Assembly (NCBI GenBank): GCA_050012755.1
Contig: JBEKGO010000036.1
Coordinates: forward strand, 1-30,626
Length of the DNA: 30,626 nt
From: Candidatus Bathyarchaeia archaeon
GTDB lineage: Archaea > Thermoproteota > Bathyarchaeia > Bathyarchaeales > Bathycorpusculaceae
Reading direction: 5' to 3'
Both the position numbers and the translations under genes were made by a program. Of the stretch, positions 3,958-20,661 are shown one piece after another; position 1 is the stretch's first letter; each line of letters starts with the position of its first letter. The notes under the pieces were generated by a model, which was given only the letters and a program-made list of their open reading frames with translations, did no database searches and was not told the DNA's origin.

Positions 3958-4816
3958 AAAATAACAAGACTTTGCCGAGTATAAATGGAATTGTGGTTGT
4001 GTGTCATCAACAACAAGCGCTTGGAGTGCACTAATTTGATTGAAAGAATAACTTCAACTAAAATTTTCTTGACTGGGTCAAACTCTAAACAAACTCTAAC
4101 CTAAACAAAAGCGAAAGATTACTGACCTAGCTCTAACAACAATAAAACAAGCTTACCAACTAAACCTAATAACTAACTTAACTTTAAAACCAGTACTCTA
4201 ACGCCAACTTAAATTACTCCACCAATGTACAAATAAAAAAAGAAATGAATACTTTGGATGGATAATTAGCCTTTTAGGAAATCTACAAAGCCATAATTTA
4301 GGCTATGTGTGTGATATTTTTGTCCATCCTTCCAAACTTCAACCAGTTTTCACAGCTGTAAAATTTAATCAGCTGTAATTAATTTATCAGCCGTTGCACT
4401 TGCTACATCTGTAAAAACTCATTTCCGTGAGTCATTATTTCCCTAAATGACGCATACGAAAAATTCTTCTTTTTTCTTATGGGGTCTATTTGCACCCCGA
4501 AAAAACGAAAAGAAGTCTGAAAACAAAACTAAAAGCAAAATTTGGTTTAATTGAGTTTGAATTGAAAGTTAAATACACGTCAGAATGAAAACCGCTGTTG
4601 CAAATGCAACAAGCAAACAATCCCCTTTTCTTTTTTCCATTATCACTGGGTGATAATGTTGTTTTACAACAGTGTTGTAATGTCAGTTAATTATTCAATT
4701 CCCAATTTATAGCACTTAAATAATATTAAGCGCAAGTTAACAAAATCGCAAGAGCAAAAACTAAAAGCTTTCTGAAATGATATTACGTCAGTTCTAAAGA
4801 AGGTGGAGCATACAAA

Positions 4817-5424
4817 ATGATTGACTTTTTCCAAAATGCATGTGAAGAAGAAAAGCTGACTATTAGACTCTCGCAAGAGAATTTTTCAGGGAAAGAGCTA
4901 AAACCTGAAAATAAAATTGTGACAGCCTTCCTTGCCTATAGGTTCTTGATAGCATCAAAATGTGTGTTCAACATCGGCATATCGGGATATTATTACGAGG
5001 CACAAATTTTAATGAGAAGTATGAATGAGACCGTTATCTATTGCCTTTCTTTCCAGCTATCTAACGATTGTGCGAGAAAGTGGCTTACTAATGGGCTGAA
5101 ACTTCGAGAAGCTAAACAAGTCATCAAGAACAGTTCTATAAAAATCTCTACAGAGGCGTACACCTACTTTGCGATTACGTTCACTCTAACCAACCAGCAA
5201 TAGCGAGGACTTTGGGCTTTCGAGAAAATCTTGAAATAGAATCTCCGACTGGACCACGATTCATGGAGAAAGGTTATGGATTGTTTAGGGAGTTTCGAGC
5301 TTTAAATCTGGGATTGCTGGAAGTATTGGCTGCTATTTTCGCTAACGATTTGGAAAAAAAGACTAAAGACACCCTTATAGCTTTCATATCGGAAGAGAAA
5401 AAAGAGATTCAGAACAAGTCTTAA
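4817..5424 (+). pseudogene. DUF5677-like protein split by a frameshift near 5168-5170
   Basis: AQILMRSMNE in the first ORF. A -1 shift at TACTTTGCG restores Y-F/L-CDYVHSNQPAIARTLGFRE and joins the 5212-5424 ORF. Confidence 0.6.
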
Positions 5425-5434
5425 AGAAATGAAG

Positions 5435-6382
5435 TTATTTCAAATCTTTATTTTTCATTTTTTCTTCAAAGGCTATTCCGATTTGCATGGAAATCTGGGA
5501 AAAGAGACTTAAAGACTCGATTAAGTATTCCATAGAAACTTTCAAGACTTCGTTGCCACCTTTGTATCCTGTTTTTTGTCTATAGAGCTTGTTTGGAATA
5601 CCCAAGTTATGAATGATGACATTTCGCCTGTAGAACCGCTCTTTAAAATTATGCCAATCAAAAGCTTTGGAAATATCTATTCCGAGTCTTCTCTTCGTGA
5701 ACGCCTGTATTTCTTCGATATCTTCATCCTTAAATTTTGAAATGTCTATAGAGAATTTCTTTTTGAAATACTCACGTATTACTTCTATATCCTCGTTGAC
5801 AATCATTGTTTCTTTTTCAATAATTCCCTCTTTAATCGCATTCATATCATTAAATTTCAGTAATTCTTCATAGTTTAGGTTCTTCTGACAAGTTTTAAGG
5901 GTCTCAGGCTTTTTTCTAAAAGAAATAGTGAGAACATTTTGGAGAAAATTTTCAAAAACTGCAATCAAATAAACCAAACTCATATCCCGAACAAGGTGAG
6001 AACCTTGCATCAGGTTGATACTTTCTTGCATATTTTTAAGAAATTTCTTATTTGTATTAAACTGAATTAATGGGTTTTTATAAGTACTAATTCTTCTCTT
6101 TTCATTGATTCTTTTGAAATTTTCGATAAGATTTTTTAGCCCTATACCATTTTCAGCCCACAGTTCAACATCTATTCGCTTATCCTCAGCCTCTACAAAT
6201 TTTAGAAATTCGTCATTTGTCCATTTAATAAGCCTTAACTCAGAGTCGAAGATAAAAAATGACCAAAGGTATTCGTCCTCTTCACTTACTATATCCACGT
6301 CTTTAACGTTATCATTGTCAACTTGAGCACTCATTTTAGTCGAATTTCTATATTGAATCATTGTACTTTTTAGCTTTTTCAT
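5435..6382 (-). CDS. HEPN-domain protein (RiboL-PSP/MAE_28990-like), putative RNase
   Basis: LVYLIAVFENFL helix and RRNVIIHN (Rx4H) motif; AT-rich. The true start may be the Met of MSAQVD. Confidence 0.65.
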   Translation of the reverse strand: MKKLKSTMIQYRNSTKMSAQVDNDNVKDVDIVSEEDEYLWSFFIFDSELRLIKWTNDEFLKFVEAEDKRIDVELWAENGIGLKNLIENFKRINEKRRISTYKNPLIQFNTNKKFLKNMQESINLMQGSHLVRDMSLVYLIAVFENFLQNVLTISFRKKPETLKTCQKNLNYEELLKFNDMNAIKEGIIEKETMIVNEDIEVIREYFKKKFSIDISKFKDEDIEEIQAFTKRRLGIDISKAFDWHNFKERFYRRNVIIHNLGIPNKLYRQKTGYKGGNEVLKVSMEYLIESLSLFSQISMQIGIAFEEKMKNKDLK

Positions 6383-6469
6383 GATGCAAAAGATGAAAGC
6401 TGAAATGGAAATTAGTTCAGATTCACAAGTCTTAAAACATAAACGAACTGATATTATATTGGTAGTAAA

Positions 6470-6781
6470 ATGTCTGGAACACGACAGTTAGGAATTGCCT
6501 TAATTGTTTTTGGTGCACTTCTTTTGATTGGTGCAGGTTTTGCATACACATACCAAGAAACAACAACTCAAGTTTATTATCAAGGGCTTTATCTTAACGG
6601 TCAACAAATTGTACCGCCTATGTCTCGTGACATAACGACAACGCCATATAGAGATGATAGCACTGGTTTAGTTCTTGGAGCGGTTGCCTTGTTTGTTGTA
6701 GGCTTTGCTCTCCTTGTTTATAAATCACAAAATGCTCCAGCGCCACCAGAGGAACCACAACCGAGTTTCAAATTAACCTAA
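6470..6781 (+). CDS. Two-TM membrane protein, unknown function
   Basis: Two hydrophobic helices around a polar loop; Pro-rich tail. Confidence 0.75.
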   Translation: MSGTRQLGIALIVFGALLLIGAGFAYTYQETTTQVYYQGLYLNGQQIVPPMSRDITTTPYRDDSTGLVLGAVALFVVGFALLVYKSQNAPAPPEEPQPSFKLT

Positions 6782-6939
6782 ATGTAAAAGGCACGATTTT
6801 TATTTTTTTGGGCGAATTTTTTTTCTAAAGCCCTAAAATAAAATTGCCCTGATTTATAGAATAAGCGGAGTGTGGCTTATTTTGGCTAATCAGGTCTGTA
6901 TTTAGGTAGGGGAGTTGTTTTGGAGTTATTCTGCAAATT

Positions 6940-6958
6940 GCGGAGCACTTAGCTCCGC
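6940..6958. repeat. Perfect GC-rich inverted repeat downstream of terL
   Basis: GCGGAGC-ACTTA-GCTCCGC. Confidence 0.6.
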
Positions 6959-7087
6959 TTTGCCTAACTAATTATCGAAATTTTTCGTACAAACTCGCTC
7001 AAATTTGGTTTTTCGGTCTCCTTAGCAATGGAAATTTTACAATGCCTGTTCTCTTCTAAAGCAGATTTTGGATATTAGATGGCTGAT

Positions 7088-8383
7088 TTAGCCAAAACTT
7101 GCCTTAACGAAGAAAGGGTGGTCAAATATGTTGACTTTTCTCCTTGTTTCCTCATGTTCAACGAAGAATGCCATTCTTCCTGGCGGTGGGCTGCGTTTTA
7201 GTTGCCATGCAGCTAATGCTAAAGCTATTACGCAGTCGTCATGATAGCCTTCTGGTGCTCCATACTGCAAGTTTCCGCTTGGTGTTGTTTTGTAACCGTA
7301 AAGTTTGAGTTCATTGATTAATTCAGGAATCGGTGGTATAGTGATCTGTTGGTTTTCAATCATTATGCTTAGGTTCTCGATTAAGTCTTTTTTTGTGGCG
7401 TTTGTGAATTTGTAGCCTTCAACCTGGATATTTTCTCTGTGGAGTTCATCGCAGATTGGGTCTCCGACACCTGTGCTATCAATTAGTAAGCGGGCGTTGT
7501 ACTGCTGGGCTAGTTGGACTGTGCGTTTGCGCTGGAAAACCCAATCTATCTGGTTGAACCTGTCAAAAGCACACAGATGCCCATCCAGATCCAGAACGGC
7601 AAGCACTGTGAAGTCCTCAAGCTTTGCCAGATCACTGCCCATAACATATTGCTTATGAGGGTCAGGCAGTTCGAGGGTGCCTTTGACTATGCGGTTTACA
7701 CCTCTGAAGACTGAGCCAACGTCTTCAAGAAACTCAGCTAAAACTTCTTGGCGGTAAGCGAGTTCGGGCATGTCACGGGCGAAAGAGGCAATCTCAGCAG
7801 GATCCAGATACGGATTGTTACTGCTTAGGAAGCTCCAGCTTTTGTAGTCGGTTTGCGATGGGTCTTGCCCTCGAGTCCAGAGTTGAAAATACCAGTTATG
7901 TCCTCTTGGCGTGCCTGTGAAGATGGCGATGCCTTTTTCATCCATCAGTGAAGGCCTAAGCGCCATAGTCCAGGCTTCTTCAGCAATCTGTGCACCCTCA
8001 TCAAGCCAGAGAACCTTTACGCCTTGGCTTCTTAGCGAATCAGGATTATCCGCACTCTTAAACCAGACATGGCGCTTTCCTTTGAGGATGACATGCCGAT
8101 CAGCACGATGGATTTCCTCTATTAATTCAGGTGGGCAAAAGTTGAAGAATTCGCTCCACTGGCGCTGAGTGTGCCAATAAGTCGGGGCAACAGCAAATCC
8201 TACAATGCCAATTTTTTCTTTGCCTTCGCCTTGCCGCCAAATTTGCCTTATGAACTCGTTAGCGCCTGCAACGGTTTTTCCCCAGCGACGTCCACAGTTG
8301 AGCACTCGAAACCTTGCTGGATGAAAGTGAAATTCAACTTGTCCAGGATGGGGCTTGTACTTAATTACCGCTGTTTTGTGCAG
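7088..8383 (-). CDS. terL: Terminase large subunit (probable CTG start at 8383)
   Basis: YKPHPGQ adenine-binding motif, Walker A GRRWGKT, Walker B LWLDE, coupling motif TGTP, and RNase H-like nuclease motifs MGSDLA, IDSTGVG and HDDCVIALALA. Confidence 0.92.
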   Translation of the reverse strand: MHKTAVIKYKPHPGQVEFHFHPARFRVLNCGRRWGKTVAGANEFIRQIWRQGEGKEKIGIVGFAVAPTYWHTQRQWSEFFNFCPPELIEEIHRADRHVILKGKRHVWFKSADNPDSLRSQGVKVLWLDEGAQIAEEAWTMALRPSLMDEKGIAIFTGTPRGHNWYFQLWTRGQDPSQTDYKSWSFLSSNNPYLDPAEIASFARDMPELAYRQEVLAEFLEDVGSVFRGVNRIVKGTLELPDPHKQYVMGSDLAKLEDFTVLAVLDLDGHLCAFDRFNQIDWVFQRKRTVQLAQQYNARLLIDSTGVGDPICDELHRENIQVEGYKFTNATKKDLIENLSIMIENQQITIPPIPELINELKLYGYKTTPSGNLQYGAPEGYHDDCVIALALAAWQLKRSPPPGRMAFFVEHEETRRKVNIFDHPFFVKASFG

Positions 8384-8765
8384 CTTTGGGATCCTCCCAT
8401 TTTATGTGTATTTCTTCAGGTTCTGCCTCATCTTGGATTTTAACGCCAGACATCTCAGCTAGGTCACAATTTATTTGACGCATTAGATTCAACGCTGTTA
8501 TGCGAGCCATGTCAGTTTTTGCCTGCATATATGTGACTACAGCTTTGCGGTACAGCTGCTCGTGTCTGTTACGAACTTTGAGCAGTGTCTTTTTCATCTC
8601 TTGAAGTTGAGGCTGCCAACGGCTCCGAATTTCAAAATCCTTGTATATAGCACGCTCAGTTACCCCGTATTTTGCGCTTAATTCCTTTACAATTTCACAA
8701 GGTTCCAGACCGTTTCCTTCGAGCTTTAACATTTCTAAACGTCTTTCAAACGTTGTCGTGTCCAT
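8361..8765 (-). CDS. Putative terminase small subunit (HTH plus helical region)
   Basis: Directly upstream of and overlapping terL; HTH-like EIVKELSAKYGVTERAIYKDF; GGTGA SD; C-terminal IHIKW strand. Confidence 0.7.
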   Translation of the reverse strand: MDTTTFERRLEMLKLEGNGLEPCEIVKELSAKYGVTERAIYKDFEIRSRWQPQLQEMKKTLLKVRNRHEQLYRKAVVTYMQAKTDMARITALNLMRQINCDLAEMSGVKIQDEAEPEEIHIKWEDPKAAQNSGN

Positions 8766-9247
8766 GAATTATCACCTTTAATTTTTTGGGGCGCATATTC
8801 AAGTGATACAGTAAGTCGTCCCTTACTTGCTGACTTTATGAGCCCCCGATTTATCTTTGAATCTGTTCTTCCATGTCGTCCATGCCCAACACGTTTAACA
8901 ATCCAACCATCCAAATTTCCACGAACCAGCTGCGGATTGCTCGTAACCAGATAGAACGGCAAATTCAACTGAGAAGTGTAGAGTTCAGCAACAAAATTTA
9001 GCAAACGCCTTCCGATGCCTATGCCCTGGTAATCAGGCAAAACAACGAGTCGGCTGACACGAAAAAAGTGACCTTTCATCCGTACATGCGCAACTGCGAT
9101 AAACGCTACAGGCTTTTCCTGATAGAGAGCAACGTAGCATCTGACGCCTGCTCCGAGCTTGCCGTTTAGATAGTGATACTGCCGAAACATCGTCCACATT
9201 GAAGTGCCGCACCGATAAACCTTAAGCTCAACGGGCGGCCGCTCTCT
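8735..9247 (-). CDS. GNAT (Mom-like) acyltransferase domain, probably the C-terminal part of an ATPase-GNAT fusion; first in-frame ATG at 9199
   Basis: WTMFRQYHYL and the acetyl-CoA motif SRLVVLPDYQGIGIG. The frame opens at the A7 run inside the upstream ATPase gene. Confidence 0.82.
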   Translation of the reverse strand, partial: RERPPVELKVYRCGTSMWTMFRQYHYLNGKLGAGVRCYVALYQEKPVAFIAVAHVRMKGHFFRVSRLVVLPDYQGIGIGRRLLNFVAELYTSQLNLPFYLVTSNPQLVRGNLDGWIVKRVGHGRHGRTDSKINRGLIKSASKGRLTVSLEYAPQKIKGDNSWTRQRLKDV

Positions 9248-9849
9248 TTTTTTCGGTCAAACTCCATGGTGTCAGTGCAGAAAACCCAATCAGGATCCAA
9301 CCAATCAACAACGTCGTAATGGCAGGTTACGGCTATGAATTTCTTGTCTTTCTGACGCCTGATTGCCTTGCTGATGGCGTAGGAAGCAATTTTTGCAACC
9401 TCGCGATCCACAACTGAGGTGAACTCGTCGAAGACAATCAGTTTTTTTGGAAGGCAAAGTGCTCTGGCGATGTCAACACGCATTTTTTCTCCTTGACTTA
9501 GGCAACTGTAAGATTTGAGCCAGTCTGGAGGCGAAGCAAAGCCGACGCTGCATAGAAGTCTGGTTGCTTCCTTTGTTTCTATTTCTTGGGGAAAATCATC
9601 TAGGATGCATTGATGCGTGTAGTCAAAGCCGGTAATGTAATCGTCTAAAAAGAGCTTTTTTGCTATACTTGATTTGCCTGAACCGCTGCGTCCGACAATG
9701 ATGCCTATTTGCCAGTCGTCTCCCTCAAATGGCAGTGAGCCTTTGAAATGCTTTTGTAACTTAACGTCGTTTAATGTGAAGCTGCCAACGACGCTTTGCG
9801 CTCGAAAACTCTCCGGTTTACTCCAACTCTTGACAAAATCAAAATCCAT
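9166..9849 (-). CDS. Soluble ABC-type ATPase (no permease partner)
   Basis: Walker A GRSGSGKS, signature-like LSQGE, Walker B IVFDEFTS, H-loop VTCH. Confidence 0.88.
   Translation of the reverse strand: MDFDFVKSWSKPESFRAQSVVGSFTLNDVKLQKHFKGSLPFEGDDWQIGIIVGRSGSGKSSIAKKLFLDDYITGFDYTHQCILDDFPQEIETKEATRLLCSVGFASPPDWLKSYSCLSQGEKMRVDIARALCLPKKLIVFDEFTSVVDREVAKIASYAISKAIRRQKDKKFIAVTCHYDVVDWLDPDWVFCTDTMEFDRKKESGRPLSLRFIGAALQCGRCFGSITI
9206..9265 (-). promoter_or_regulatory. Candidate -1 programmed frameshift signal
   Basis: GGAG, then 8 nt, then A_AAA_AAA (9253-9247), a 7-nt spacer and a 34-nt hairpin (9239-9206). Confidence 0.6.
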
Positions 9850-9861
9850 TTCCGCCTCTCC

Positions 9862-10428
9862 CTACAAATTCAAAACTCTCACTTTGTATCCTTCCGTTTT
9901 GAATTTCTCAAAAAAGAACATCTGCTGGGTTTCGTCTGTGCATTCGATGATTAGCTCATAGCTGTCCGGTATTATGTTTGAGTTTTCAGGTGCATGGCCA
10001 TCGGTTTCCGGTAGTGTCTCGCCAATTGACTGTAGTAGTGCTTTTAGGCAATCGCTTTTGCCTGCCTCTATAATGCGCATGTACTCGGCATCGTCAAGCT
10101 CCCTGTTATGTTTACCTTTGAGCTTGTTTAGAATCTGCCGCAGCATTCGCCTATCAACATCAGAAACTGGCAGCCGAAGAACCGGAGCAAAAAACTCGCC
10201 CTGTTCTTTGCAAACCTGCGCTCTCTGTTCACCATCAGCGAAGACGCCCTCTTTGTTGGTTATGATTGGGTAGGTCCACCCGTACTTTTGGAGGCTACGC
10301 CAAACTTGTTCTTTCTGTTTGATTGCCATTTTGTTTGGGTTGTTTTCGTCACTTTTTAGAAGCCGAAGATCTTCAAGCAGGGGCAAGTAAGCATCTGGGA
10401 CAATGATGTTTGTTTTCTTTTCAGCCAA
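9862..10428 (-). CDS. ParB/Srx N-terminal-domain protein (start reassigned to TTG 10428)
   Basis: NNPNKM...SLQKYGWTYPII...ADGEQR pattern. GGTGA SD at 10437-10433. The longer start overlaps the divergent gene. Confidence 0.8.
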   Translation of the reverse strand: MAEKKTNIIVPDAYLPLLEDLRLLKSDENNPNKMAIKQKEQVWRSLQKYGWTYPIITNKEGVFADGEQRAQVCKEQGEFFAPVLRLPVSDVDRRMLRQILNKLKGKHNRELDDAEYMRIIEAGKSDCLKALLQSIGETLPETDGHAPENSNIIPDSYELIIECTDETQQMFFFEKFKTEGYKVRVLNL

Positions 10429-10473
10429 TTTATCACCAAAACTTAAGAGGGCTGTTGTTTGGTATAGATTGCA

Positions 10474-11211
10474 TTGGTGTATGATTTGGGTACCAATGGG
10501 CACGGAATCCAAAAACTGGATGTTTACGAAAAAGCTGTTTTAGATTTGCTTAATTTTGGACCTAAGCAGAGGAAATGGCTTGTAGAGCAGTTATGCACAA
10601 AGATTATGTCGAAGAGGAAACTGCAGGGGACTCTCAACAGCTTGGAAGATGCTGGAAAAATCAAAAAAGTCTATCGGAGCATCGATGATAGACAGACGAC
10701 GTGGTACGTTTTGCCTGAGCAGGAGTATCTTCTAAATGTCGATGAGGGAAGGATGCTGTCGGCGATGGATCGTTTGAAGAAGTTTCTTTTTCGTCCCGCA
10801 ACCGTCGATGAGCTTGCGGTTGAAACTGGTGTTACACCTGCAGTTGCTGAGAAGTTGGCTTACAAGTTGGCAGTGCAAGCTGGATGGTTTAATCCTTCGC
10901 CAGAGCTCATTGCCCATGCACGGGAAAAGCTTGGGGAAGTTTTGGTGTGCGCAGCAAGAATTAAACAAAACGTGTTTTCTGACGCCGACTTGAACCATAT
11001 TTATAGAAATGACCTGGAAATCATAGATGAGGCAAAACGGTTTTTGAATGAGCATCCTGAAATGATTCCCAGCCTTAAACCCGATGAGTACTTTCATCCG
11101 GTGGCTTGGTGTTTATCTTGGCCAGATGAAGCCCTAAAATACCTTGGAAGCCCCCATAAACCAAAAACTCGCCCCATCCCCGGCGTCGGTGTCCGTTTCA
11201 TCCAACATTAA
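10474..11211 (+). CDS. Winged-HTH protein divergent from the terminase operon, possible regulator
   Basis: N-terminal wHTH-like AVLDLL...LQGTLNSLEDAGKIKK...WYVL and a second HTH-like TVDELAVETGVTP. Exact start uncertain. Confidence 0.6.
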   Translation: MVYDLGTNGHGIQKLDVYEKAVLDLLNFGPKQRKWLVEQLCTKIMSKRKLQGTLNSLEDAGKIKKVYRSIDDRQTTWYVLPEQEYLLNVDEGRMLSAMDRLKKFLFRPATVDELAVETGVTPAVAEKLAYKLAVQAGWFNPSPELIAHAREKLGEVLVCAARIKQNVFSDADLNHIYRNDLEIIDEAKRFLNEHPEMIPSLKPDEYFHPVAWCLSWPDEALKYLGSPHKPKTRPIPGVGVRFIQH

Positions 11212-11326
11212 ACAACTTCGACTATCTCCCAGAAAGCTAGAAGCAGGGAATAAACAAAACAGAACCAGCCTTCAGCCTTAGCAGTTTTTTGCTGCTATCT
11301 TCTTCACTCATTGTTTATGTCTGTTT

Positions 11327-11389
11327 TCATATTTGTTGATTGACTGCCTTGACTATGTCTTCAATGTAATCAATGAACTCTTTTGTCAT
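11327..11389 (-). pseudogene. 5' fragment of a HEPN toxin (20 codons)
   Basis: MTKEFIDYIEDIVKAVN matches the start of 13260-13607 (MTKEFIDYVEDIIKAMN), then diverges and stops. Confidence 0.85.
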
Positions 11390-11684
11390 ATGGTTACAAC
11401 TTCTTCTAAAACATGTTTTCCAATTCTGGGTTTAAGGGTTCCTTTCTCTACCAAGTCGACTTTGACGCCTAAAATGTCAGTAAGGTAGTTCTCTAGTCCT
11501 ATAAAATCCAATAAACTTAGTTTAGATAACTCTTCAAACTCAACTAAGATATCAATATCGCTTTTTTTCTTTTGTTCTCCTCTTACGTAGGAACCAAAAA
11601 TGCCAATGTCTTTGACTTGATAATTCTTCTTTAGCTCTTGCTTATGTTTGCTTAACATTTTTTTATTTGGTCGATAGTTATCAT
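11386..11684 (-). pseudogene. MNT antitoxin paralogue with a 1-nt deletion in an A-run (may restart at ATG 11658)
   Basis: Near-identical protein to 13604-13903; 299 nt versus 300 nt, with A7 at 11664-11658 versus A8 in the paralogue. Confidence 0.8.
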
Positions 11685-11782
11685 TGATTTTCACTTTATT
11701 ATTTGCTCTTGAAAAGTTAAGGTTTGCTCTTGGGAATTGTGGTGCAAGGCACTCAAGAAATCTTCTAAAATCATCTGTGACG

Positions 11783-11831
11783 TTCTGCGGTTCTATGAAG
11801 AAGCAGAGAAAAACAAAGAAACACGCAACTT
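11783..11831. repeat. 49-bp repeat family R1, copy A
   Basis: TTCTGCGGTTCTATGAAGAAGCAGAGAAAAACAAAGAAACACGCAACTT; 4 mismatches to copy C. Confidence 0.9.
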
Positions 11832-11888
11832 CCACTAACTTAGCCTTTCGCAGATTAACTCGGAATTTTTTGGAATGATAGAATTTTA

Positions 11889-13052
11889 TTAAGTTTGCGA
11901 TGAAGGCAGGGCTAAAGGTTTTGCGATTTGATTAGTTGAGGTTTTTCGATGCCTTCTATAAATTAACAGAACAATACTCAGGACAACAACTACCGCTATA
12001 AGTGCAATTATTAAAACTTGTTCGTCAACAGCTATCATGGTCCGAGTTGAAGTTGGGCTTGGAGAAAGAAGTTGCAAAAGTGACAAAGAAGGCATAGCTG
12101 ATCCATTAAATGGAATACTTAGCGGATGATAATCGTAATATACAGCTTGCCCAGAATCGCTAGCAATTATGGCATATGGTTGGCTTCCGTTTCCTGTGTA
12201 GTCACTCCAGTAGTTTCCTACTGTCGAATTATCCCAAGTATTGATCCCATTGCTGGGTTCTGCGTTGCTCTGTAGAGAAACTTGAATTGAGTTATTGATA
12301 AAATTATTATTGTAAAAATAACCATTTGTGGAACTTTCCAGCTCTATTCCCCATTTGTTGTAGGCAAAAGTGTTGCCAGAAACTGTAGTGCCGTCACATG
12401 CATCGAGATATAATCCAAAATTACCCGTAACATTACCAAAGTAATTGTCAGCGATAACAGTGTTGATTTGATTAGTTAATTCTTCGCCTCCACCTAAAAA
12501 GACGTTCAACGTTATATTGTTGTCTTCGCCGTTTGCACCTCCAATATTAGTTCCTACCAATAAGTTTGCGAGAAAAATACTGCTAGATGCACCGTCAAGT
12601 GAAATCCCTGTTCCACCAATTTTAGTTAGTGTGTTGTTGTCGATTCTAATATCCTCCCTTGCACCGTCAATTTTTATTCCATCAGATTCTTCAATTGGTT
12701 CTGTTAGAACATGCGTGTTTGTTAGGGTGAAGCCTTGGATTAAGACATGGCTGGCGTTAACGTTAATGATGGTGTTGTATCCTCCGTTGCCATCTATGAT
12801 GGTTGAAGCTTGTCCTTCGCCAATAAGCGATATGGGTTTATTGATAACTAAGGTTTCCTTATACAGCCCATGCTTAACTAAAACTGTATCGCTGGCGTTT
12901 GCATGGTTTATAGCTCCTTGAATAGTTGAGTATTGGTCAGGAACAACGAAAGTTCGGGTTTGGGCTTTTACAACAACGTGTGGTAATAGAACTAAAGAGA
13001 TTAAGCAAATTAGAACAAACAATAAACCCAGAGCTTTGCTTCTTCTACTCAT
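11889..13052 (-). CDS. Cell-surface right-handed beta-helix (NosD/CASH-like) protein with signal peptide and C-terminal TM anchor
   Basis: VVPDQYSTIQGAIN, Asn-ladder repeats, YNNNFINN, GNYWSDY, then a TM helix and RRHRK tail. Confidence 0.85.
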   Translation of the reverse strand: MSRRSKALGLLFVLICLISLVLLPHVVVKAQTRTFVVPDQYSTIQGAINHANASDTVLVKHGLYKETLVINKPISLIGEGQASTIIDGNGGYNTIINVNASHVLIQGFTLTNTHVLTEPIEESDGIKIDGAREDIRIDNNTLTKIGGTGISLDGASSSIFLANLLVGTNIGGANGEDNNITLNVFLGGGEELTNQINTVIADNYFGNVTGNFGLYLDACDGTTVSGNTFAYNKWGIELESSTNGYFYNNNFINNSIQVSLQSNAEPSNGINTWDNSTVGNYWSDYTGNGSQPYAIIASDSGQAVYYDYHPLSIPFNGSAMPSLSLLQLLSPSPTSTRTMIAVDEQVLIIALIAVVVVLSIVLLIYRRHRKTSTNQIAKPLALPSSQT

Positions 13053-13088
13053 ACAGGTTATACCAACTTTAAAGTGATAAAAGGGTAT

Positions 13089-13132
13089 TCGTAAAAGTCT
13101 CTTGACTGAATTTTAGTCAAGGTTTGTTTACT
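13089..13132. repeat. Hairpin repeat family R2, copy 1
   Basis: TC GTAAA AGTCT CTTGACT GAATTTT AGTCAAG GTTTG TTTAC T, ending 37 bp upstream of the ATG at 13052. Confidence 0.9.
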
Positions 13133-13185
13133 TAATAGAAACTCATTGAAAGTAAGGCTGTATTTCTTTACTTTGTTGGAAATTG

Positions 13186-13259
13186 TGATGCAGTCGCTGA
13201 GATTTGAACCAGGGTCGTCAGCGTGGCAGGCATGTCCTAGACCGAACTATACTGCGACC
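13186..13259 (-). pseudogene. Degenerate tRNA-Gly(GCC)
   Basis: GGTCG CA GTAT AGTTCGGTCTA GGAC AT GC CT GCC AC GC TGA CGAC CCTGG TTCAAAT CTCAG CGACTGC ATCA. The first two bases are lost, the anticodon stem is shortened, the T-stem is mispaired and CCA has become TCA. Confidence 0.8.
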
Positions 13260-13607
13260 TTATTTTTCCTTGTTTTCTTCAAGCATTTTTTCAAACAGAG
13301 GTTCTAAAGCAGGTAAATCATTATTAACCGTATTCCAGACCCTTTTAAGATCGACTCCAAAATACTCATGAATGACCTTATCTCTCATTCCAGCCATCTT
13401 CTTCCATGGTATTTGGCTATAATCGGCTTTGATTGAAGAGGGCACTTTTTTAGTTGCTTCTCCAATGATCTCCAAAGCTCGGATGACAGCATACGTGGTT
13501 TTTGTATCCTTGACGAAAATCTCGTAATCCATGTTTTTAACAAAGCCTAACGCATCATTCATGGCCTTGATTATGTCCTCAACGTAATCGATGAATTCTT
13601 TTGTCAT
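13260..13607 (-). CDS. DUF86/HepT-type HEPN toxin (intact)
   Basis: AVIRALEIIGEA, IPWKKMAGMRDKVIHEYFGVD (Rx4HxY). Confidence 0.92.
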   Translation of the reverse strand: MTKEFIDYVEDIIKAMNDALGFVKNMDYEIFVKDTKTTYAVIRALEIIGEATKKVPSSIKADYSQIPWKKMAGMRDKVIHEYFGVDLKRVWNTVNNDLPALEPLFEKMLEENKEK

Positions 13608-13903
13608 ACCGTTACAACTTCTTCTAAAACATGCTTTCCAATTCTGGGTTTAAGAGTTCCTTTTTCCACCAAATCAACTTTAACGCCTAAAATGTCTGTA
13701 AGATAATTCTCTAATCCAATAAAATCCAGCAAGCTTAGTTTAGAAGATTCTTCAAATTCGACCAAAATGTCAACATCACTTTTTTTCTTCTGTTCTCCCC
13801 TTACGTAGGAACCAAAAATGCCAATGTCTCTTACCTGATAATTCTGCTTTAGTTCTTGCTTATGTTTGCTCAAAGTTTTTTTTATTTGGTCGATTGTTAT
13901 CAT
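13604..13903 (-). CDS. MNT antitoxin (intact)
   Basis: GSYVRGEQKKKSDVD; ATGA overlap with the HEPN gene. Confidence 0.92.
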   Translation of the reverse strand: MITIDQIKKTLSKHKQELKQNYQVRDIGIFGSYVRGEQKKKSDVDILVEFEESSKLSLLDFIGLENYLTDILGVKVDLVEKGTLKPRIGKHVLEEVVTV

Positions 13904-14007
13904 TGGTTTTCAATTAATAATCTCCGATTGAAAAGTTAAGGTTTACTCCTCAAAAAATTTTGTGGGAGATGCAGTGCGAATTCTCAAAACCTTTAAGATC
14001 ATCCAAT

Positions 14008-14056
14008 TTCTGCGCTTCTATGAAGAAGCAGAGAAACGCAAAGAAACCCGCAAATT
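14008..14056. repeat. 49-bp repeat family R1, copy B
   Basis: TTCTGCGCTTCTATGAAGAAGCAGAGAAACGCAAAGAAACCCGCAAATT; 3 mismatches to copy C. Confidence 0.9.
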
Positions 14057-14117
14057 TACTAAACTTCCTTTCTTAATAATCTCTGTTCTGGTTTCCATTT
14101 CCTTCATTTTCGTTTGT

Positions 14118-14333
14118 CTAAAACAATGAAGTTTGCGATCTCTTCTTATACCTAAAGAAAACTACTGAAACGACAATTACGACGAAAATAACTACTCCAA
14201 TTACAATGATTAGAGTGTTCGATAATGCAGGTGAAGAACTCAAAGCCCCCAATGCATAATCTCTATCGTCATATGATCCAAAGTAAACGACTCCGTTGAC
14301 AACAGTAAGAGACGAAACAATACCGAAATAAGT
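14118..14333 (-). pseudogene. Orphan 3' fragment of a PQQ-repeat surface protein (absent from the ORF track)
   Basis: Reads TYFGIVSSLTVVNGVVYFGSYDDRDYALG...TLIIVIGVVIFVVIVVSVVFFRYKKRSQTSLF*: last propeller blade, TM helix and basic tail. Confidence 0.8.
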
Positions 14334-14423
14334 CCGTTCAAAAGTTGGACACCGTGAAAGTAATATGTTCTACACCTTGGCCTTAATAATAACGTTCATC
14401 CATCTTTGCTTTGTGATCTTCAG

Positions 14424-15068
14424 ATGCAAAAAGGAATTAGGAAACACGCATGGCTTTACGTAATAGTGACAGTTCTAATCGCTGTAATGTTGGTTTCGCT
14501 TTACTATCAATTTGGCTACCTGCCTCAGAGGCAAAATGGGACCTCTCCCCAGGAACTTGTTGGTCCACTTGGGGGGCAAAATGGGACGTATTCCCAGGGA
14601 ACCCTTGGTTCAACTGGGAGTCCTAACATCGTTGAGGGCCCCAACATCTTCGCGACATTGTCTTTTTCGAATGCGACGGGTTTCGTGACGACCGTCCATC
14701 CTACTTCGGGAACGATTGAATTTGTTCTGCTCCCGAACAGCGTGGGTGAATTTACGGTTACGTACACGGGAATCGGCTTCAACAATTTGACTGTTCCGAT
14801 ATTCAATCCAGTTTTTGGAAATCCCGTTGGCGTGTTAAATGTTTTGTCGAATGGCACGCTTGGAACTGGCTCAGGATTGAGTGTAACTGAATCAGGTGTG
14901 ACATGGGTGAGCTATTATCAAGTGGCTGTTAACTACGCTGTCACTTCTGGAGGGTCAGATGGGTTATACGTGGTTGGATTGCCTTCAACGTGTCTCAGCA
15001 CCATTGTTGATGTTGGAACTCAACCCTACACTGGGTCTCTAACATGGCTTGACGGAATTATTTATTAG
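14424..15068 (+). CDS. N-terminally anchored Gly/Ser/Thr-rich surface protein (ORF track starts it at TTG 14406)
   Basis: One N-terminal TM helix followed by a beta-rich polar domain with several NxS/T sequons. Confidence 0.7.
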   Translation: MQKGIRKHAWLYVIVTVLIAVMLVSLYYQFGYLPQRQNGTSPQELVGPLGGQNGTYSQGTLGSTGSPNIVEGPNIFATLSFSNATGFVTTVHPTSGTIEFVLLPNSVGEFTVTYTGIGFNNLTVPIFNPVFGNPVGVLNVLSNGTLGTGSGLSVTESGVTWVSYYQVAVNYAVTSGGSDGLYVVGLPSTCLSTIVDVGTQPYTGSLTWLDGIIY

Positions 15069-15100
15069 CGCACGCTGAGTGTTACTCAGGGACCAAAAAC

Positions 15101-15149
15101 ACTCAAACAACTCAGAATTTTTTTTTGAGTGACACATCCTTGTTTGAGT
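15101..15149. terminator. Inverted repeat with T-tract between convergent genes
   Basis: ACTCAAACAA (15101-15110) and TTGTTTGAGT (15140-15149) enclose a T-run. Confidence 0.5.
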
Positions 15150-15156
15150 TTGCGAT

Positions 15157-16521
15157 TTAATTATTTCGCTTGTGTTTCTTGAAATAAACCAATAATCCAG
15201 TTGACGCCATAAGGATTAGCAATATTGGAATTGTCAGTGGTGGAAACTCTGGAACGGAAGGGGTAGGCGAAGGCGAGGGTGATGTGGTTTGCGAGGGAGT
15301 TGAAGTTAGGCTAGGCGAAGGCGTCTGGGTAGATGGAACACCGAAGGCATAGACTTGGCCGTCTCCAGAGCTTATGTACAGTACATTGCCTGCAATTACA
15401 GGAAAAGACAAGGAGGCTTCTTGAGTACTGAAGCTCCATATGTTTTTACCTGTTGCAGCATTTAGGCCACAAAGGGTTCCCGTAGAGCCGAGGTTTTGAG
15501 GAAAGTGGTATAAATTTGAGCAGACGTAAACCATCCCGTTTGAAACTGCAAGAGAAGAGCCCACTGGAGAGCCACAAGAATAAATCCAAGTCAACGCGCC
15601 TGTGGCAGCATTTAAAGCATACACATTGCCATCAGCTGAGCCAACGTAGACTACACCGTTAGCAACTGCGGGACAAGAGACACCGCCCCCAGTCGTGTAG
15701 CTCCAGAGTTGCGCCCCGCTACTTGCATTTAAGGCGTAGACATTATCGTTTGGTGAACCCACATAGACTATGCCATCTGCGATGGCTGGAGAAGTTGGTA
15801 TAGCGACTTCTACTTTCGGGTTAGACGGATAGGCTAAAAATTTCCAGATTACCGTGCCGTCTTTAGCGTTTAGAGCGTAAACATTGCCATCGTATGAGCT
15901 TATGTAGAGAGTCCCGTTTACAAGTGCGGGAGAAGAATATACTTGGTCTCCTGTTGTATAGTTCCATATCACAGTACCAATGGTTGCATTGAGAGCATAT
16001 ACGTTGAAGTCGCCTGAACCAATGTAGACTATGCCGTTAGCAACAGAAGGAGAACCTATGCCGCCGCTGACAGTTTTGTACACCCAAGAGACAGAGCCCG
16101 TTAAGGCGTCAAAAGCATACAGATCGCCGTCTCCGTTGCCAGCATAGACAATGCCATTTGCAACTGCTGGAGCAGAAATAGAAAAACCGAAATTAACAGG
16201 CGCTCCAGTGTAGTTCCATAATAGAAGTTCATTTGCAGCATTTATGGCATACAAGTTAGTATTTCCGCCAACGTAGACTATGCCGTTTGCAACTGAAGCG
16301 GGGGACATAGATCCTGAATCAAAAGCTGCAAAGCTCCACAGACTTTGGTTAGTGAGCGGTGCCGCCGAAGTCGAGTATCCAGTATGTGACAAGTCATGCT
16401 GAAACATAGGCCAGTCATCTGAAGCAGAGTTAGCGTTTGCATGGATAGGTTGGAACATAACTAAAGACGTTAAAAACGATGCAACAAGCATGAAAGCTAG
16501 AATTTTACCCCAACTGCTCAT
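15157..16521 (-). CDS. PQQ-repeat beta-propeller surface protein with PEF-CTERM sorting signal (start reassigned to ATG 16521)
   Basis: DWPMFQHDLSHTG, repeated SPAVANGIVYVGS.DGNVYALNA.TG..IW blades, a Pro/Ser/Thr linker, then VPEF, TM helix and KKHKR. Confidence 0.9.
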   Translation of the reverse strand: MSSWGKILAFMLVASFLTSLVMFQPIHANANSASDDWPMFQHDLSHTGYSTSAAPLTNQSLWSFAAFDSGSMSPASVANGIVYVGGNTNLYAINAANELLLWNYTGAPVNFGFSISAPAVANGIVYAGNGDGDLYAFDALTGSVSWVYKTVSGGIGSPSVANGIVYIGSGDFNVYALNATIGTVIWNYTTGDQVYSSPALVNGTLYISSYDGNVYALNAKDGTVIWKFLAYPSNPKVEVAIPTSPAIADGIVYVGSPNDNVYALNASSGAQLWSYTTGGGVSCPAVANGVVYVGSADGNVYALNAATGALTWIYSCGSPVGSSLAVSNGMVYVCSNLYHFPQNLGSTGTLCGLNAATGKNIWSFSTQEASLSFPVIAGNVLYISSGDGQVYAFGVPSTQTPSPSLTSTPSQTTSPSPSPTPSVPEFPPLTIPILLILMASTGLLVYFKKHKRNN

Positions 16522-16556
16522 AGTTAGTCTTAGAACTGGTTTTGTTATAAGGCTTC

Positions 16557-16599
16557 TCGTAAAGGTCTCTTGACTAGGTTTAGTCAAGGTTTGTTTACT
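16557..16599. repeat. Hairpin repeat family R2, copy 2
   Basis: TC GTAAA GGTCT CTTGACT AGGTTT AGTCAAG GTTTG TTTAC T, ending 36 bp upstream of the ATG at 16521. Confidence 0.9.
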
Positions 16600-16704
16600 A
16601 TTTTTTGATTGAAATGTTCTGAGTTCGCGCCATTCCCCCGCAAATTCTTTATATCAGAGTTTAACCTTAGTAATCTTGTAGTACTTTGAAGTTGATGTTG
16701 AACC

Positions 16705-16932
16705 ATGGATTCACAAGTGACCCGTAAGGGACAGGTAACCGTTCCTGTTGAGCTAAGACGAAAATACAGCATAAGTCAAGGTGTGAAAGTATTCTTCGAA
16801 GACTCTCCAGCAGGGATTGTTCTTAAGGTCATTCCTCGATTTCAAGACTTAATCGGCGCTGACGCTGACAAGGTGGACTTGGACCAAACCTTGAAAAAAT
16901 TGGATAAGATGCGGTCAGAAGATAGGTACTAA
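16705..16932 (+). CDS. AbrB/SpoVT-family antitoxin
   Basis: VTRKGQVTVPVELRRKY motif; overlaps a PIN gene. Confidence 0.9.
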   Translation: MDSQVTRKGQVTVPVELRRKYSISQGVKVFFEDSPAGIVLKVIPRFQDLIGADADKVDLDQTLKKLDKMRSEDRY

Positions 16933-17336: not shown

Positions 17337-17377
17337 AAGAAAGAACATCATTAAGTCCTATGACAGATTGCACCTGC

Positions 17378-17426
17378 TTCTGCGCTTCTATGAAGAAGCA
17401 GAGAAACGTAAAGAAACACGCAACTT
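17378..17426. repeat. 49-bp repeat family R1, copy C
   Basis: TTCTGCGCTTCTATGAAGAAGCAGAGAAACGTAAAGAAACACGCAACTT, 42 bp after the vapC stop. Confidence 0.9.
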
Positions 17427-18012: not shown

Positions 18013-18144
18013 GTTTGCACCTGGTTACTCTTCTTTGAAATAGCTAGTTAAGCTTTAATTATTGAAAATATAGATTCAAAAACACTAATTAAACAAAGTA
18101 GAAATAATCTAAAAGAAGAAGGCTTTTGTTGTTAGACTTTGAAT

Positions 18145-20562: not shown

Positions 20563-20661
20563 ATCGAAGTCACTTCGTTTAAAATCTCTAAGTAACTTTT
20601 AATTTGCTGGGTAATTAAGTTTCTGTTAGCTGATTTTCCAGCTTCTGACTAATGTTTACGC

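What the first reader, a model, noticed from the sequence alone, without database searches (positions are those of the whole stretch)
7088..11211. Intact but headless DNA-packaging and DNA-modification operon (ParB-N, ABC-ATPase, GNAT, TerS, TerL) with a divergent wHTH gene
Seen: five tightly coupled minus-strand genes with SD sites and all recognisable catalytic motifs intact. After terL come only hairpins and a convergent membrane gene. I recognise no portal, capsid, tail, integrase or replication gene in the window, while several neighbouring TA genes are decayed. Known: in head-tail viruses terL is normally followed by the portal, and ParB-N proteins with Mom-like GNAT base-modifying enzymes are described in terminase-linked loci. 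Inference: either a cleanly truncated provirus or a retained stand-alone module. Such a module could be a satellite or gene-transfer-type unit that marks DNA and loads it into capsids encoded elsewhere, or a domesticated ATP-driven modify-and-cut system. This is the best candidate for a new system here.
Basis: partly seen in the sequence, partly recalled or inferred. Interest (0 to 1): 0.82.

Follow-up and report, generated by a model that had tools for sequence, protein, structure and literature searches.

The report
Stand-alone viral DNA-packaging cassette in archaeon
A peat-bog archaeon carries a small block of virus DNA-packaging genes with no virus shell genes, and related archaea have kept the same block intact over long evolutionary time, so it probably still does something.

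Summary
The gene block is real and the assembly holds: contigs from other runs bridge both ends. The host is a Bathyarchaeia genome.

Three corrections:
- The ATPase and GNAT are one recoded gene. The -1 frame opens exactly at an A7 run (9247-9253), as in 63 of 63 related loci.
- terL has CTG where 26 of 27 compared relatives have ATG or TTG.
- The TerS label rests on position and architecture only.

Of 40 related loci, 23 are complete head-tail viruses with the portal straight after terL. Thirteen copies, the window included, are headless. They form one side of a supported branch in three gene trees and sit beside ordinary cell genes. Eight of the 13 are intact, with dN/dS of 0.05-0.11, like the complete viruses.

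The window's genome has no portal or HK97 capsid gene, so a GTA-type reading fails. The copy lies in a 14-kb variable island that is absent from a congener.

Best reading (0.4): a selectively kept, virus-derived packaging and DNA-marking cassette that works in trans on capsids of related infecting viruses. Rivals are a capsid-independent ParB/ATPase-GNAT system and a decaying relic. I rate it a new variant of a known kind, interest 0.6.

The parts
10474..11211 (+). Divergently transcribed 245-aa protein with an N-terminal winged-helix-like region, probably the cassette's regulator. The start may be at 10486.
   Evidence: ORF. There is only a weak SarA/Rot hit (E 0.009). Homologues sit at the same place in L017 and L025 (79-81% identity). 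It is remotely related to the c52 family found upstream of L006, L011, L019 and L026 (hhalign probability 84%, E 7e-6). It is absent from class A virus loci. The protein atlas gives MarR/Lrp-type leads only.
9862..10413 (-). ParB/Srx N-terminal-domain protein of 183 aa from the TTG at 10413. The mechanical ORF runs up to 10512.
   Evidence: Matches phrog_498 (4e-14) and phrog_620 (1e-11). NPN and DGEQR are invariant in 15 of 15 homologues, which start at M(A)EKKT. The TTG at the aligned place is seen. Fused ParBc-ABC-GNAT proteins exist (P0063, P0084).
9166..9849 (-). ABC-type ATPase in the zero frame, 227 aa. This is the unshifted product.
   Evidence: ABC_tran E 1.3e-9. phrog_11143 positions 12-201, E 6e-59. 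PDB ABC nucleotide-binding domains.
9247..9253 (-). A7 run, the slippery heptamer A AAA AAA in the ATPase frame. It is the proposed site of a -1 ribosomal frameshift or of transcriptional slippage.
   Evidence: The -1 frame opens one codon before it. An A6-A10 run with the same frame relation occurs in 29 of 29 genome/viral loci and 34 of 34 metagenome loci. Contigs of X2 and X5 cover it without a difference.
8735..9256 (-). GNAT acetyltransferase frame (-1 relative to the ATPase). The ATG at 9199 gives 154 aa on its own. Read from the A-run, it joins to the ATPase to give a fusion of about 371 aa.
   Evidence: Acetyltransf_7, _1 and _10. The translation from 9256 matches phrog_11143 positions 197-348 at 107 bits, against 87 bits from the ATG. 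The 34-nt overlap is invariant. The 'start' codon is CTG, ACA, GCA or CTT in many loci.
8361..8765 (-). TerS-like small DNA-binding protein, 134 aa.
   Evidence: It lies directly upstream of terL and overlaps it. The model has three short N-terminal helices and then a long helical hairpin, pLDDT 84. No profile hit and no significant fold hit. The nearest atlas clusters are viral HTH proteins.
7088..8383 (-). Large terminase, 431 codons if started at the CTG at 8383. The first canonical start is the GTG at 8305 (405 aa).
   Evidence: Profile matches. The open frame is 437 codons. Start-codon comparison. It is 73-90% identical to the TerL of 24 Bathyarchaeia loci. GGAGG lies 9 nt before the CTG.
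6940..6958 (-). 7-bp GC-rich hairpin about 130 nt after the terL stop, possibly the transcript end.
   Evidence: Read from the sequence. The consensus scan did not list it as a terminator.
4016..18150 (.). A variable island of about 14 kb that holds the cassette, MNT/HEPN and PIN toxin-antitoxin genes and surface proteins. It is absent at the syntenic site of a same-genus genome.
   Evidence: G081:C82 is colinear with window 3295-4015 and 18151-21926, with about 380 bp between. Gene content.

Best explanation
**What it is.** The block is one member of a distinct lineage of stand-alone cassettes, about 4-5 kb long, derived from Bathyarchaeia head-tail viruses. A cassette holds a wHTH-type regulator and, divergently from it, ParB-N, an ABC-ATPase that is extended by a -1 shift into an ATPase-GNAT fusion, a TerS-like protein and TerL.

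**What is shown.**
- The lineage is separate from the complete viruses.
- It has fixed boundaries and sits among cell genes.
- Its reading frames have been kept by purifying selection as strong as in the viruses.
- This genome encodes no capsid.

**What is inferred (mechanism).**
- The cassette is silent under its regulator until a related siphovirus infects the cell.
- Its TerS/TerL pair then competes for that virus's empty capsids. It starts packaging from its own recognition site in the chromosome.
- ParB loads the ATPase-GNAT enzyme onto the DNA to mark it.
- The result is either spread of the cassette and its neighbours (piracy or lateral transduction) or sabotage of the virus's own packaging (defence). 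The data cannot separate these two outcomes.

**This copy.** It is nearly intact but has a weakened terL start (CTG).
For: **Shared block, two contexts.**
- The five-gene block is shared with complete viruses, in which portal, scaffold, HK97 capsid and tail tube follow terL. This holds in 23 of 40 related loci.
- Thirteen genome copies, the window included, are headless. A 4.3-kb IMG/VR contig (L029) duplicates one of them, L019.

**A separate lineage with fixed ends.**
- Headless copies are one side of a branch in the terL (SH-aLRT 95), ParB (100) and ATPase (100) trees.
- DNA similarity always ends at the terL stop and at the ParB 5' end or the regulator.
- Downstream genes are cellular: nitroreductase, epimerase, PRPP synthase.
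- No head or tail remnants were found in 15 of the 17 non-class-A loci searched.

**Selection.**
- Eight of the 13 have all cores intact.
- Within-lineage dN/dS medians are ParB 0.068, ATPase 0.068, GNAT 0.112, TerS 0.093 and TerL 0.052. In the viruses they are 0.067, 0.040, 0.044, 0.140 and 0.042.
- L015 and L022 sit at the same host locus. Their module dS (0.66-1.37) is comparable with the flank dS (0.49-0.94), and dN/dS is 0.07-0.10.
- L011 and L027 modules are far closer to each other than their host flanks are, which suggests transfer.

**Other support.**
- A lineage-specific divergent regulator is present in 7 of the 13.
- TerL is as constrained as in the viruses, which fits continued docking to capsids.
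- Natural ParB-ATPase-GNAT and ATPase-GNAT-TerS(GP3_package) fusions tie the enzyme to ParB and to packaging.
- Class A proviruses co-reside with a headless copy in 2 of the 13 genomes (titles).
Against: - No capsid source is in this genome. No helper is shown for this host.
- There is no integrase, replication gene or att repeat, so there is no visible means of excision.
- Five of the 13 headless copies are broken. The window's terL has lost its ATG.
- The distribution is patchy: ParB-like matches occur in 9 of 121 family genomes and in 0 of 3 other same-genus genomes.
- L020 has inverted tail-region genes nearby, and L009 is a virus/cassette mosaic. Some copies are therefore provirus debris.
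- Seventeen metagenome loci keep ParB-ATPase-GNAT without this terL, so terL may not be the selected part.
- dS is near saturation (1-1.8) and pairs with saturated dS were dropped. The dN/dS values are approximate.
- The trees used the quick method and are unrooted.
- No pac site, expression or modification has been observed.
Confidence: 0.4

Rival explanations
1. The selected unit does not depend on capsids. ParB-N, the ATPase-GNAT enzyme and the small TerS-like DNA-binding protein form an ATP-driven system that acetylates DNA or a DNA-bound protein. The host or the island keeps it for defence, self-marking or regulation. TerL is a dispensable passenger that is being lost.
For: - Seventeen of the 18 metagenome loci with at least 1.5 kb after GNAT lack this terL, yet they keep a TerS-like gene, ParB, ATPase and GNAT with the frameshift site. 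Two of the 17 carry a different terL.
- Their neighbours are cell genes, a type I restriction-modification system and an integrase.
- 477 fused ABC-GNAT proteins of 399 aa or more exist. Some carry ParBc or HTH domains.
- The window's terL has lost its ATG.
- ParB-like partners of DNA-modifying enzymes are documented: passages of PMC13229309, and DpdB in passages of PMC12839542.
Against: - TerL dN/dS in the headless lineage is the lowest of the five genes (0.052).
- terL is intact in 10 of the 13 headless copies.
- The window's terL frame is still open for 437 codons, with a GGAGG before the CTG.
- No modification or target is known.
Confidence: 0.25
2. It is an inert leftover of a provirus in a junk-collecting island. 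Its intact look reflects a recent origin from functional viruses, not selection in place.
For: - It lies in a 14-kb variable island with toxin-antitoxin genes, absent from a congener.
- terL has lost its start codon.
- Five of the 13 headless copies are broken.
- A degraded terL piece lies on C65.
- Fragments of terL lie near other copies.
- L020 and L009 show virus debris or recombination.
- The distribution is patchy.
Against: - It would need 13 independent truncations at the same two boundaries.
- All of them would have to come from a virus type with this ParB, TerS and regulator. No such type was seen among 23 complete viruses or 80 metagenome loci.
- Within-lineage divergence of dS above 1 with open frames and dN/dS of 0.05-0.11 is incompatible with neutral decay.
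- The same-locus pair L015/L022 diverged together with its host flanks under constraint.
Confidence: 0.25
3. It is the packaging arm of a gene-transfer-agent-like system whose head and tail genes lie elsewhere in the same genome.
For: Split gene-transfer-agent gene sets are known in bacteria (recalled, not checked here). A second solitary TerL-like gene exists on C5.
Against: - No match to the class A portal, capsid, scaffold or tube proteins (tblastn E<=1e-4).
- No match to Phage_portal, Phage_capsid or Phage_capsid_4 anywhere in a genome rated 100% complete. The controls rang for these three families.
- The C5 TerL is also headless.
Confidence: 0.03
4. The headless look is an assembly artefact, a chimeric join near 7.0 kb.
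For: The genome is a metagenome-assembled draft of 65 contigs. GC changes at the block's edges.
Against: Contigs assembled from other runs cross the junction with no differences: X2 5426-7579, X3 6960-7579, X4 6904-7253. The other end is crossed by X3 10138-11386 and X2 10959-13000. Twelve other genomes show the same headless end.
Confidence: 0.02

Closest known systems
Complete head-tail (siphovirus-like) proviruses of Bathyarchaeia. This is 'class A' here, which includes the host genome of the 46.8-kb provirus described for a Bathy-6 complete MAG (PMC11697101, passages read).
   Same: It has the same ParB, ATPase/GNAT (with the same frameshift site), TerS and TerL block in the same order. 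TerL is 85-88% identical to the window's.
   Different: In those viruses, portal, scaffold, HK97 capsid and tail genes follow terL. ParB is only 44-49% and TerS 53-60% identical. TerS there has a 40-aa C-terminal tail that the headless copies lack. They have no wHTH/c52 regulator.
The ParB-N plus 'ABC transporter' gene pair upstream of the terminase genes in temperate phages of Firmicutes. Examples are Streptococcus prophage 315.4, phiNIH1.1, the Javan phages, Lactococcus P335 and Oenococcus Vinitor-27. The fused family is phrog_11143.
   Same: The ATPase is 45-51% identical. A ParB-N gene lies directly upstream, and TerL and portal lie downstream in 315.4. The window's two frames are colinear with phrog_11143.
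   Different: Those are parts of complete phages. Their function is not annotated beyond 'ABC transporter'. Whether they use a frameshift was not examined.
Phage satellites that redirect packaging (PICI, cf-PICI and PICMI types; features recalled from the literature, not tested against any set).
   Same: Both are small chromosomal elements that carry packaging specificity genes and lack a full virion gene set, so they would depend on a helper's capsids.
   Different: No integrase, replication module or att sites were found here. The cassette carries TerL without any capsid gene, a combination I do not know from described satellites. The archaeal satellites in the two preprints I looked at are plasmid-derived, and the passages I saw ascribe no terminase to them.
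ParB-like partners of DNA-modifying enzymes: ParB-dependent phage thymidine dioxygenases (PMC13229309) and DpdB of the Dpd system (as cited in PMC12839542).
   Same: A ParB/Srx-fold protein is encoded next to a nucleic-acid-modifying enzyme, often near terminase genes. Terminases co-occur in 19% of the 5mYOX neighbourhoods (passage).
   Different: The enzyme here is an ABC-ATPase-GNAT, not a dioxygenase or a transglycosylase. No modified base is known.
Gene transfer agents
   Same: Both are virus-derived packaging genes kept in a cellular chromosome.
   Different: Gene transfer agents encode their own heads. This genome has none.

Membership tests
Large terminase of tailed viruses (Terminase_6N/6C type) | N-terminal packaging ATPase domain | tested here: met
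   PF03237 E 1.6e-13 over residues 2-202; phrog_2 E 2.4e-36. GRRWGKT and LWLDE are seen in the sequence. The motif names are recalled.
Large terminase of tailed viruses (Terminase_6N/6C type) | C-terminal RNase-H-like nuclease domain | tested here: met
   PF17289 E 2e-6 over residues 223-365.
Large terminase of tailed viruses (Terminase_6N/6C type) | Complete N-terminus with a usable start codon | tested here: not met
   CTG stands at 8383 where 26 of the 27 other loci have ATG or TTG. The next start would delete the conserved YKPHPGQ..FH stretch. The CTG is confirmed in 4 of 4 other runs.
Large terminase of tailed viruses (Terminase_6N/6C type) | Encoded beside a portal gene | tested here: not met
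   No portal in the window or the genome. Portal_Mu had a silent control.
Small terminase (TerS) | Gene directly upstream of terL; small protein with an N-terminal HTH and a helical oligomerisation core | tested here: met
   8361-8765 overlaps the terL frame. The model shows three short helices and then a long helical hairpin, pLDDT 84.
Small terminase (TerS) | Profile or fold match to a known TerS family | tested here: inconclusive
   No Pfam or NCBIfam hit; phrog_15023 (unknown function) E 0.005. Best PDB E-value 1.6; best BFVD E-value 0.012, to unnamed phage proteins.
ParB/Srx N-terminal domain | Profile match and the conserved arginine-containing box | tested here: met
   phrog_498 4e-14 and phrog_620 1e-11. 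DGEQR is invariant in 15 of 15 homologues. PF02195 is on the fused homologues P0063 and P0084. Pfam itself gave no hit at E<=0.01 on the window protein.
ParB/Srx N-terminal domain | NTP binding or hydrolysis, or nuclease activity | not testable with these tools
   This needs biochemistry.
ABC-ATPase-GNAT fusion proteins (phrog_11143) | Colinear match of the ATPase and then the GNAT to one profile | tested here: met
   ATPase residues 14-206 match profile positions 12-201. The -1 frame from 9256 matches profile positions 197-348.
ABC-ATPase-GNAT fusion proteins (phrog_11143) | One polypeptide | tested here: inconclusive
   This requires a -1 shift at the A7 run. The conservation is 63 of 63 loci, and the GNAT start codon is non-canonical in many loci. 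No protein evidence exists, and no conserved RNA structure follows the site.
Phage satellites (PICI-like) | Integrase and att sites | tested here: not met
   No PF00589 match on this contig; the 10 matches lie elsewhere in the genome. No flanking direct repeats.
Phage satellites (PICI-like) | Own replication module | tested here: not met
   None was recognised among the island's ORFs.
Phage satellites (PICI-like) | A helper virus whose capsids it uses | tested here: inconclusive
   Related complete viruses exist in the same class of hosts. They co-reside in 2 of the 13 genomes with a headless copy. There is none in this genome.
Gene transfer agent | Head genes encoded in the same genome | tested here: not met
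Mom-like DNA base acyltransferase | Specific similarity to Mom rather than to generic GNATs | tested here: inconclusive
   The whole-Pfam scan returned only Acetyltransf_7, _1 and _10. The best PDB hit was a protein N-acetyltransferase at E 0.004. No Mom sequence was compared directly.

The most novel reading that the evidence does not exclude
Headless terminase cassettes are a previously undescribed kind of archaeal element. The cassette is a minimal, regulator-controlled unit of TerS/TerL plus ParB/ATPase-GNAT, with no capsid, integrase or replicase genes. It survives by seizing the empty capsids of infecting relatives of its ancestral virus. It starts packaging in situ from the chromosome and so either transduces its own island or aborts the virus. 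Its enzyme arm, made by a conserved -1 frameshift, would put an acyl mark on the DNA it loads.
Probability: 0.3. Interest if true: 0.8.

Novelty: new variant of a known kind. Interest (0 to 1): 0.6.

Why it matters
- **A new minimal unit, if it works in trans.** It would show that a packaging motor alone, without head genes or an integration and replication kit, can persist as a unit of selection in archaea. That would be a simpler form of virus piracy or of packaging-interference defence than the known satellites. It could also be a route for lateral transduction in a poorly known, abundant sediment and peat lineage.
- **A testable recoding site.** Independently of that, the ATPase-GNAT recoding site is conserved in every locus examined. 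It gives a concrete case of programmed frameshifting or slippage in archaeal viruses.
- **An unstudied phage module.** The ParB plus ATPase-GNAT pair is widespread next to terminases, including in well-known Streptococcus and Lactococcus phages, where it is labelled 'ABC transporter'. Its function has not been studied, as far as my searches show.

Tried and rejected
No earlier notes were seen.
- **RNA evidence:** no RNA holder was listed among 24 runs, so expression is untested.
- **TerS fold:** the PDB and BFVD searches gave no significant match.
- **Fused ATPase-GNAT homologue:** the fold (P0004 with 24 relatives, pLDDT 83) matched only ABC nucleotide-binding domains in the PDB and said nothing about the GNAT's substrate.
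- **RNA structure after the A-run:** none conserved (consensus -2.55 kcal/mol; 1 of 14 pairs had a compensatory change).
- **att sites:** no att-like direct repeats at the cassette or island edges.
- **Terminator scan:** the bacterial-type scan found nothing after terL beyond chance.
- **Empty site:** DNA searches of the flanks in three same-genus genomes were too diverged to give an empty site at base resolution. Protein-level colinearity gave the island instead.
- **Portal_Mu search** of the genome was uninformative because its control rang nowhere.
- **Literature:** five searches found no paper on headless or stand-alone terminase cassettes or on the ParB/ABC-GNAT unit. I read only listings and the passages returned by 'find'. 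No supplements were opened, so gene tables of the Bathyarchaeia virus papers could hold relevant annotations.
- **Idea considered and left:** that an element integrates into the terL 3' end, because terL fragments lie downstream of intact terL in L010, L015 and L022. The genes in between include no integrase.

**Rows dropped**
- Copies failing the core-intact test were left out of the trees and the dN/dS counts.
- L029 (a duplicate of L019) and the mosaic L009 were left out of dN/dS.
- Pairs with dS outside 0.05-3 were dropped. Kept: ParB 30 of 55, ATPase 34 of 36, GNAT 42 of 45, TerS 18 of 28 and TerL 38 of 55 headless pairs.

Full report
**What is in the window.** On the minus strand between 7088 and 10512 lie five tightly packed reading frames, with a divergent 245-aa gene at 10474-11211.
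- TerL is secure: Terminase_6N E 1.6e-13, Terminase_6C 2e-6, phrog_2 2.4e-36.
- The 227-aa protein is an ABC-type ATPase (ABC_tran 1.3e-9; PDB ABC nucleotide-binding domains).
- The 154-aa protein is a generic GNAT.
- The 216-aa ORF has no Pfam hit, but it matches ParB-like PHROGs (4e-14 and 1e-11). It carries NPN and DGEQR blocks that are invariant in 15 of 15 homologues.
- The 134-aa 'TerS' has no family match and no significant fold match. Its model is three short helices followed by a long helical hairpin. The name therefore rests on position and architecture.

The window ends in an archaeal 23S rRNA gene. All close relatives come from Bathyarchaeia genomes.

1. *ATPase and GNAT are one recoded gene.*
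 - The GNAT frame is -1 to the ATPase frame. It opens one codon before an A7 run (9247-9253) that reads A AAA AAA in the ATPase frame.
 - The 34-nt overlap is invariant. The nominal GNAT start is CTG, ACA, GCA or CTT in many loci, among them intact viruses.
 - The same frame relation and A-run occur in 29 of 29 genome/viral loci and 34 of 34 metagenome loci.
 - Translating the -1 frame from 9256 extends the match to the fused family phrog_11143 back to profile position 197 (107 bits against 87). The ATPase frame covers positions 12-201.
 - Naturally fused proteins share the linker motif.
 - The expected products are the 227-aa ATPase and a fusion of about 371 aa. No stimulatory RNA structure is conserved, so transcriptional slippage is equally possible.

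2. *The terL start is changed.* Twenty-six of the 27 other loci compared begin terL at ATG or TTG, at M(Q/H)KT..YKPHPGQ. The window has CTG there (8383). The first canonical start (GTG, 8305) lies 4 codons before the Walker A motif. The CTG is present in contigs of four other peat runs. A GGAGG lies 9 nt upstream.

3. *ParB starts later.* It most likely starts at the TTG at 10413.

**Where it sits.**
- The contig is the window.
- A same-genus genome is colinear with window 3295-4015 and 18151-21926, with about 380 bp between. The cassette therefore lies in a 14-kb variable island.
- The island also holds MNT/HEPN and PIN toxin-antitoxin genes and NosD-like and PQQ-propeller surface proteins.
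- The block's GC is 0.456 against 0.416 for the genome.
- Independent contigs bridge both ends of the block without a mismatch, so the assembly is not chimeric.

**Relatives.** Pattern scans with TerL gave 24 genome loci and 16 IMG/VR loci.
- *Class A, 23 loci.* The same block is followed by portal, scaffold, HK97 capsid and tail tube genes. These are complete head-tail viruses. One host is the Bathy-6 genome for which a 46.8-kb provirus was reported.
- *Class B, 13 genome copies including the window.* terL is the last viral gene. L029 is a 4.3-kb IMG/VR contig that duplicates L019. Cell genes follow, such as nitroreductase, epimerase, PRPP synthase and an AAA_14 ATPase. No head or tail remnants were found in 15 of the 17 non-class-A loci searched. 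The exceptions are L009 (a mosaic) and L020 (inverted tail-region genes upstream).
- DNA similarity to the window always stops at the terL stop, and at the ParB 5' end or the regulator's end.
- Seven of the 13 carry a divergent regulator of one remote family.
- *Class C.* A scan of metagenomes with ParB found a third arrangement: a TerS-like gene, two small genes, ParB and ATPase/GNAT without this terL. It occurs in 17 of the 18 loci that have at least 1.5 kb after GNAT. Two of the 17 carry a different terL. These loci sit among cell genes, a type I restriction-modification system and an integrase.

**Lineage and selection.**
- In DNA trees of terL (35 rows), ParB (30) and ATPase (28), the headless copies form one side of a branch (SH-aLRT 95, 100, 100). 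The exception is L009, whose ParB and ATPase are virus-type and whose terL is cassette-type (quick method, midpoint root only).
- Eight of the 13 headless copies have all cores open. Fifteen of the 18 class A loci that hold all five genes do.
- Pairwise dN/dS (NG86) within the headless lineage is 0.05-0.11, against 0.04-0.14 in the viruses. dS is 1.4-1.8, near saturation, and saturated pairs were dropped.
- L015 and L022 share the same host flank. Their cassette dS is similar to the flank dS, with dN/dS of 0.07-0.10. L011 and L027 cassettes are much closer to each other than their flanks are. Both long residence and transfer therefore occur.
- Divergence between the two classes is gene-specific. 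Nucleotide identity is ParB 0.54, TerS 0.60, ATPase 0.69, GNAT 0.71 and terL 0.77. The cassette is a mosaic.

**No capsids here.**
- The genome (100% complete by markers, 65 contigs) has no match to class A structural proteins, nor to Phage_portal, Phage_capsid or Phage_capsid_4, with working controls.
- It has no integrase on this contig.
- It does hold a degraded terL piece on C65.
- It also holds a second solitary TerL-like gene on C5, beside an Eco57I-type enzyme.
- ParB-like matches occur in 9 of 121 sampled genomes of the family and in 0 of 3 other genomes of the genus.

**The wider family.**
- 477 proteins of 399 aa or more combine the ATPase with a GNAT. Some also carry ParBc, HTH or a GP3_package TerS domain.
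- In the deposited phage collection the ATPase is 45-51% identical to 'ABC transporter' genes of Streptococcus, Lactococcus and Oenococcus phages.
- In prophage 315.4 the order is ParB-N, ATPase, small genes, TerL, portal.
- The enzyme arm is thus an old, widespread and unstudied companion of terminases. ParB-like activators of DNA-modifying enzymes near terminases are documented.

**How it most likely works.**
- *Shown:* a discrete, regulator-linked cassette lineage kept by selection without head genes.
- *Inferred:* it acts in trans on capsids of related infecting viruses, with ParB loading the ATPase-GNAT onto DNA. The outcome is piracy or transduction, or interference with the virus. Confidence 0.4.
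- *Rivals:* a capsid-independent ParB/ATPase-GNAT system with a dispensable terL (0.25), supported by class C and by the window's CTG; an inert relic (0.25), supported by the island setting, the broken copies and the patchy spread, but hard to square with the selection data; a gene-transfer-agent-like split system (0.03); an artefact (0.02).

**Novelty and limits.** Five literature searches found no description of such cassettes or of this enzyme unit. Only listings and returned passages were read, and no supplements. There is no evidence on expression, modification or packaging. The trees are unrooted, dS is high, and the loci were found by pattern scans that reach only close relatives.

Noticed in passing
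G000 contig C5:64540-66287 (locus L138:8540-10287): A second solitary TerL-like gene (490 aa, Terminase_6N E 1.7e-6) with a 101-aa upstream ORF. It lies beside a 1166-aa Eco57I/MmeI-type restriction-modification enzyme and next to the DUF2070 and aminotransferase genes. Homologues of those two genes flank the headless cassettes in L015, L022 and L023. No portal lies beside it.
   Followed up: partly
G000 contig C65 (L002:1501-1876): A 2.5-kb contig with a degraded terL 3' piece, containing stops, that is 75% identical to window 7083-7516. A second copy once existed in this genome.
   Followed up: partly
L010:15988-16587; L015:11707-11832; L022:13167-13592; L028:10001-10420: Isolated terL 3' fragments lie 0.5-5 kb downstream of an intact terL, or alone in L028. 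The cause is unknown. No integrase lies between them.
   Followed up: partly
L009 (whole locus): A mosaic. It has virus-type upstream genes, ParB, ATPase, GNAT and TerS, but a terL from the headless clade. No portal lies in the 1.85 kb left on the contig. It may be a recombinant between a virus and a resident cassette through the conserved terL.
   Followed up: no
L020-L023 (for example L022:7506-8203): A variant architecture. A distant TerS-like gene (22-23% identical) and a 97-110-aa gene lie upstream of ParB, and there is no TerS between GNAT and terL. L022 nevertheless shares its host locus and a sister terL with L015, which has the usual order.
   Followed up: partly
class A loci, for example L005:9540-10058: The TerS of the complete viruses has a 40-aa serine/threonine/proline-rich C-terminal tail, encoded in the overlap with terL. 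The headless copies lack it.
   Followed up: no
window 11339-11729 and 13557-13948; also 11783-11832, 14008-14057 and 17378-17427: The MNT nucleotidyltransferase gene and its upstream region are duplicated (86% identity). Only the second copy keeps a HEPN partner. A 50-nt element recurs three times in the island.
   Followed up: no
L139 (Streptococcus prophage 315.4, record 13548-18886): The ParB-N and 'ABC transporter' genes lie just upstream of the terminase and portal genes in a well-known prophage. The 89-aa ORF after the ATPase may be the remains or a shifted frame of the GNAT (phrog_7693 is an 89-position 'acetyltransferase' profile).
   Followed up: no
G000 contig C26:19579-21158: Homologues (95% and 74% identical) of two genes (c43, c22) that lie in the left part of class A proviruses. 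They may be another mobile-element remnant in this genome.
   Followed up: no
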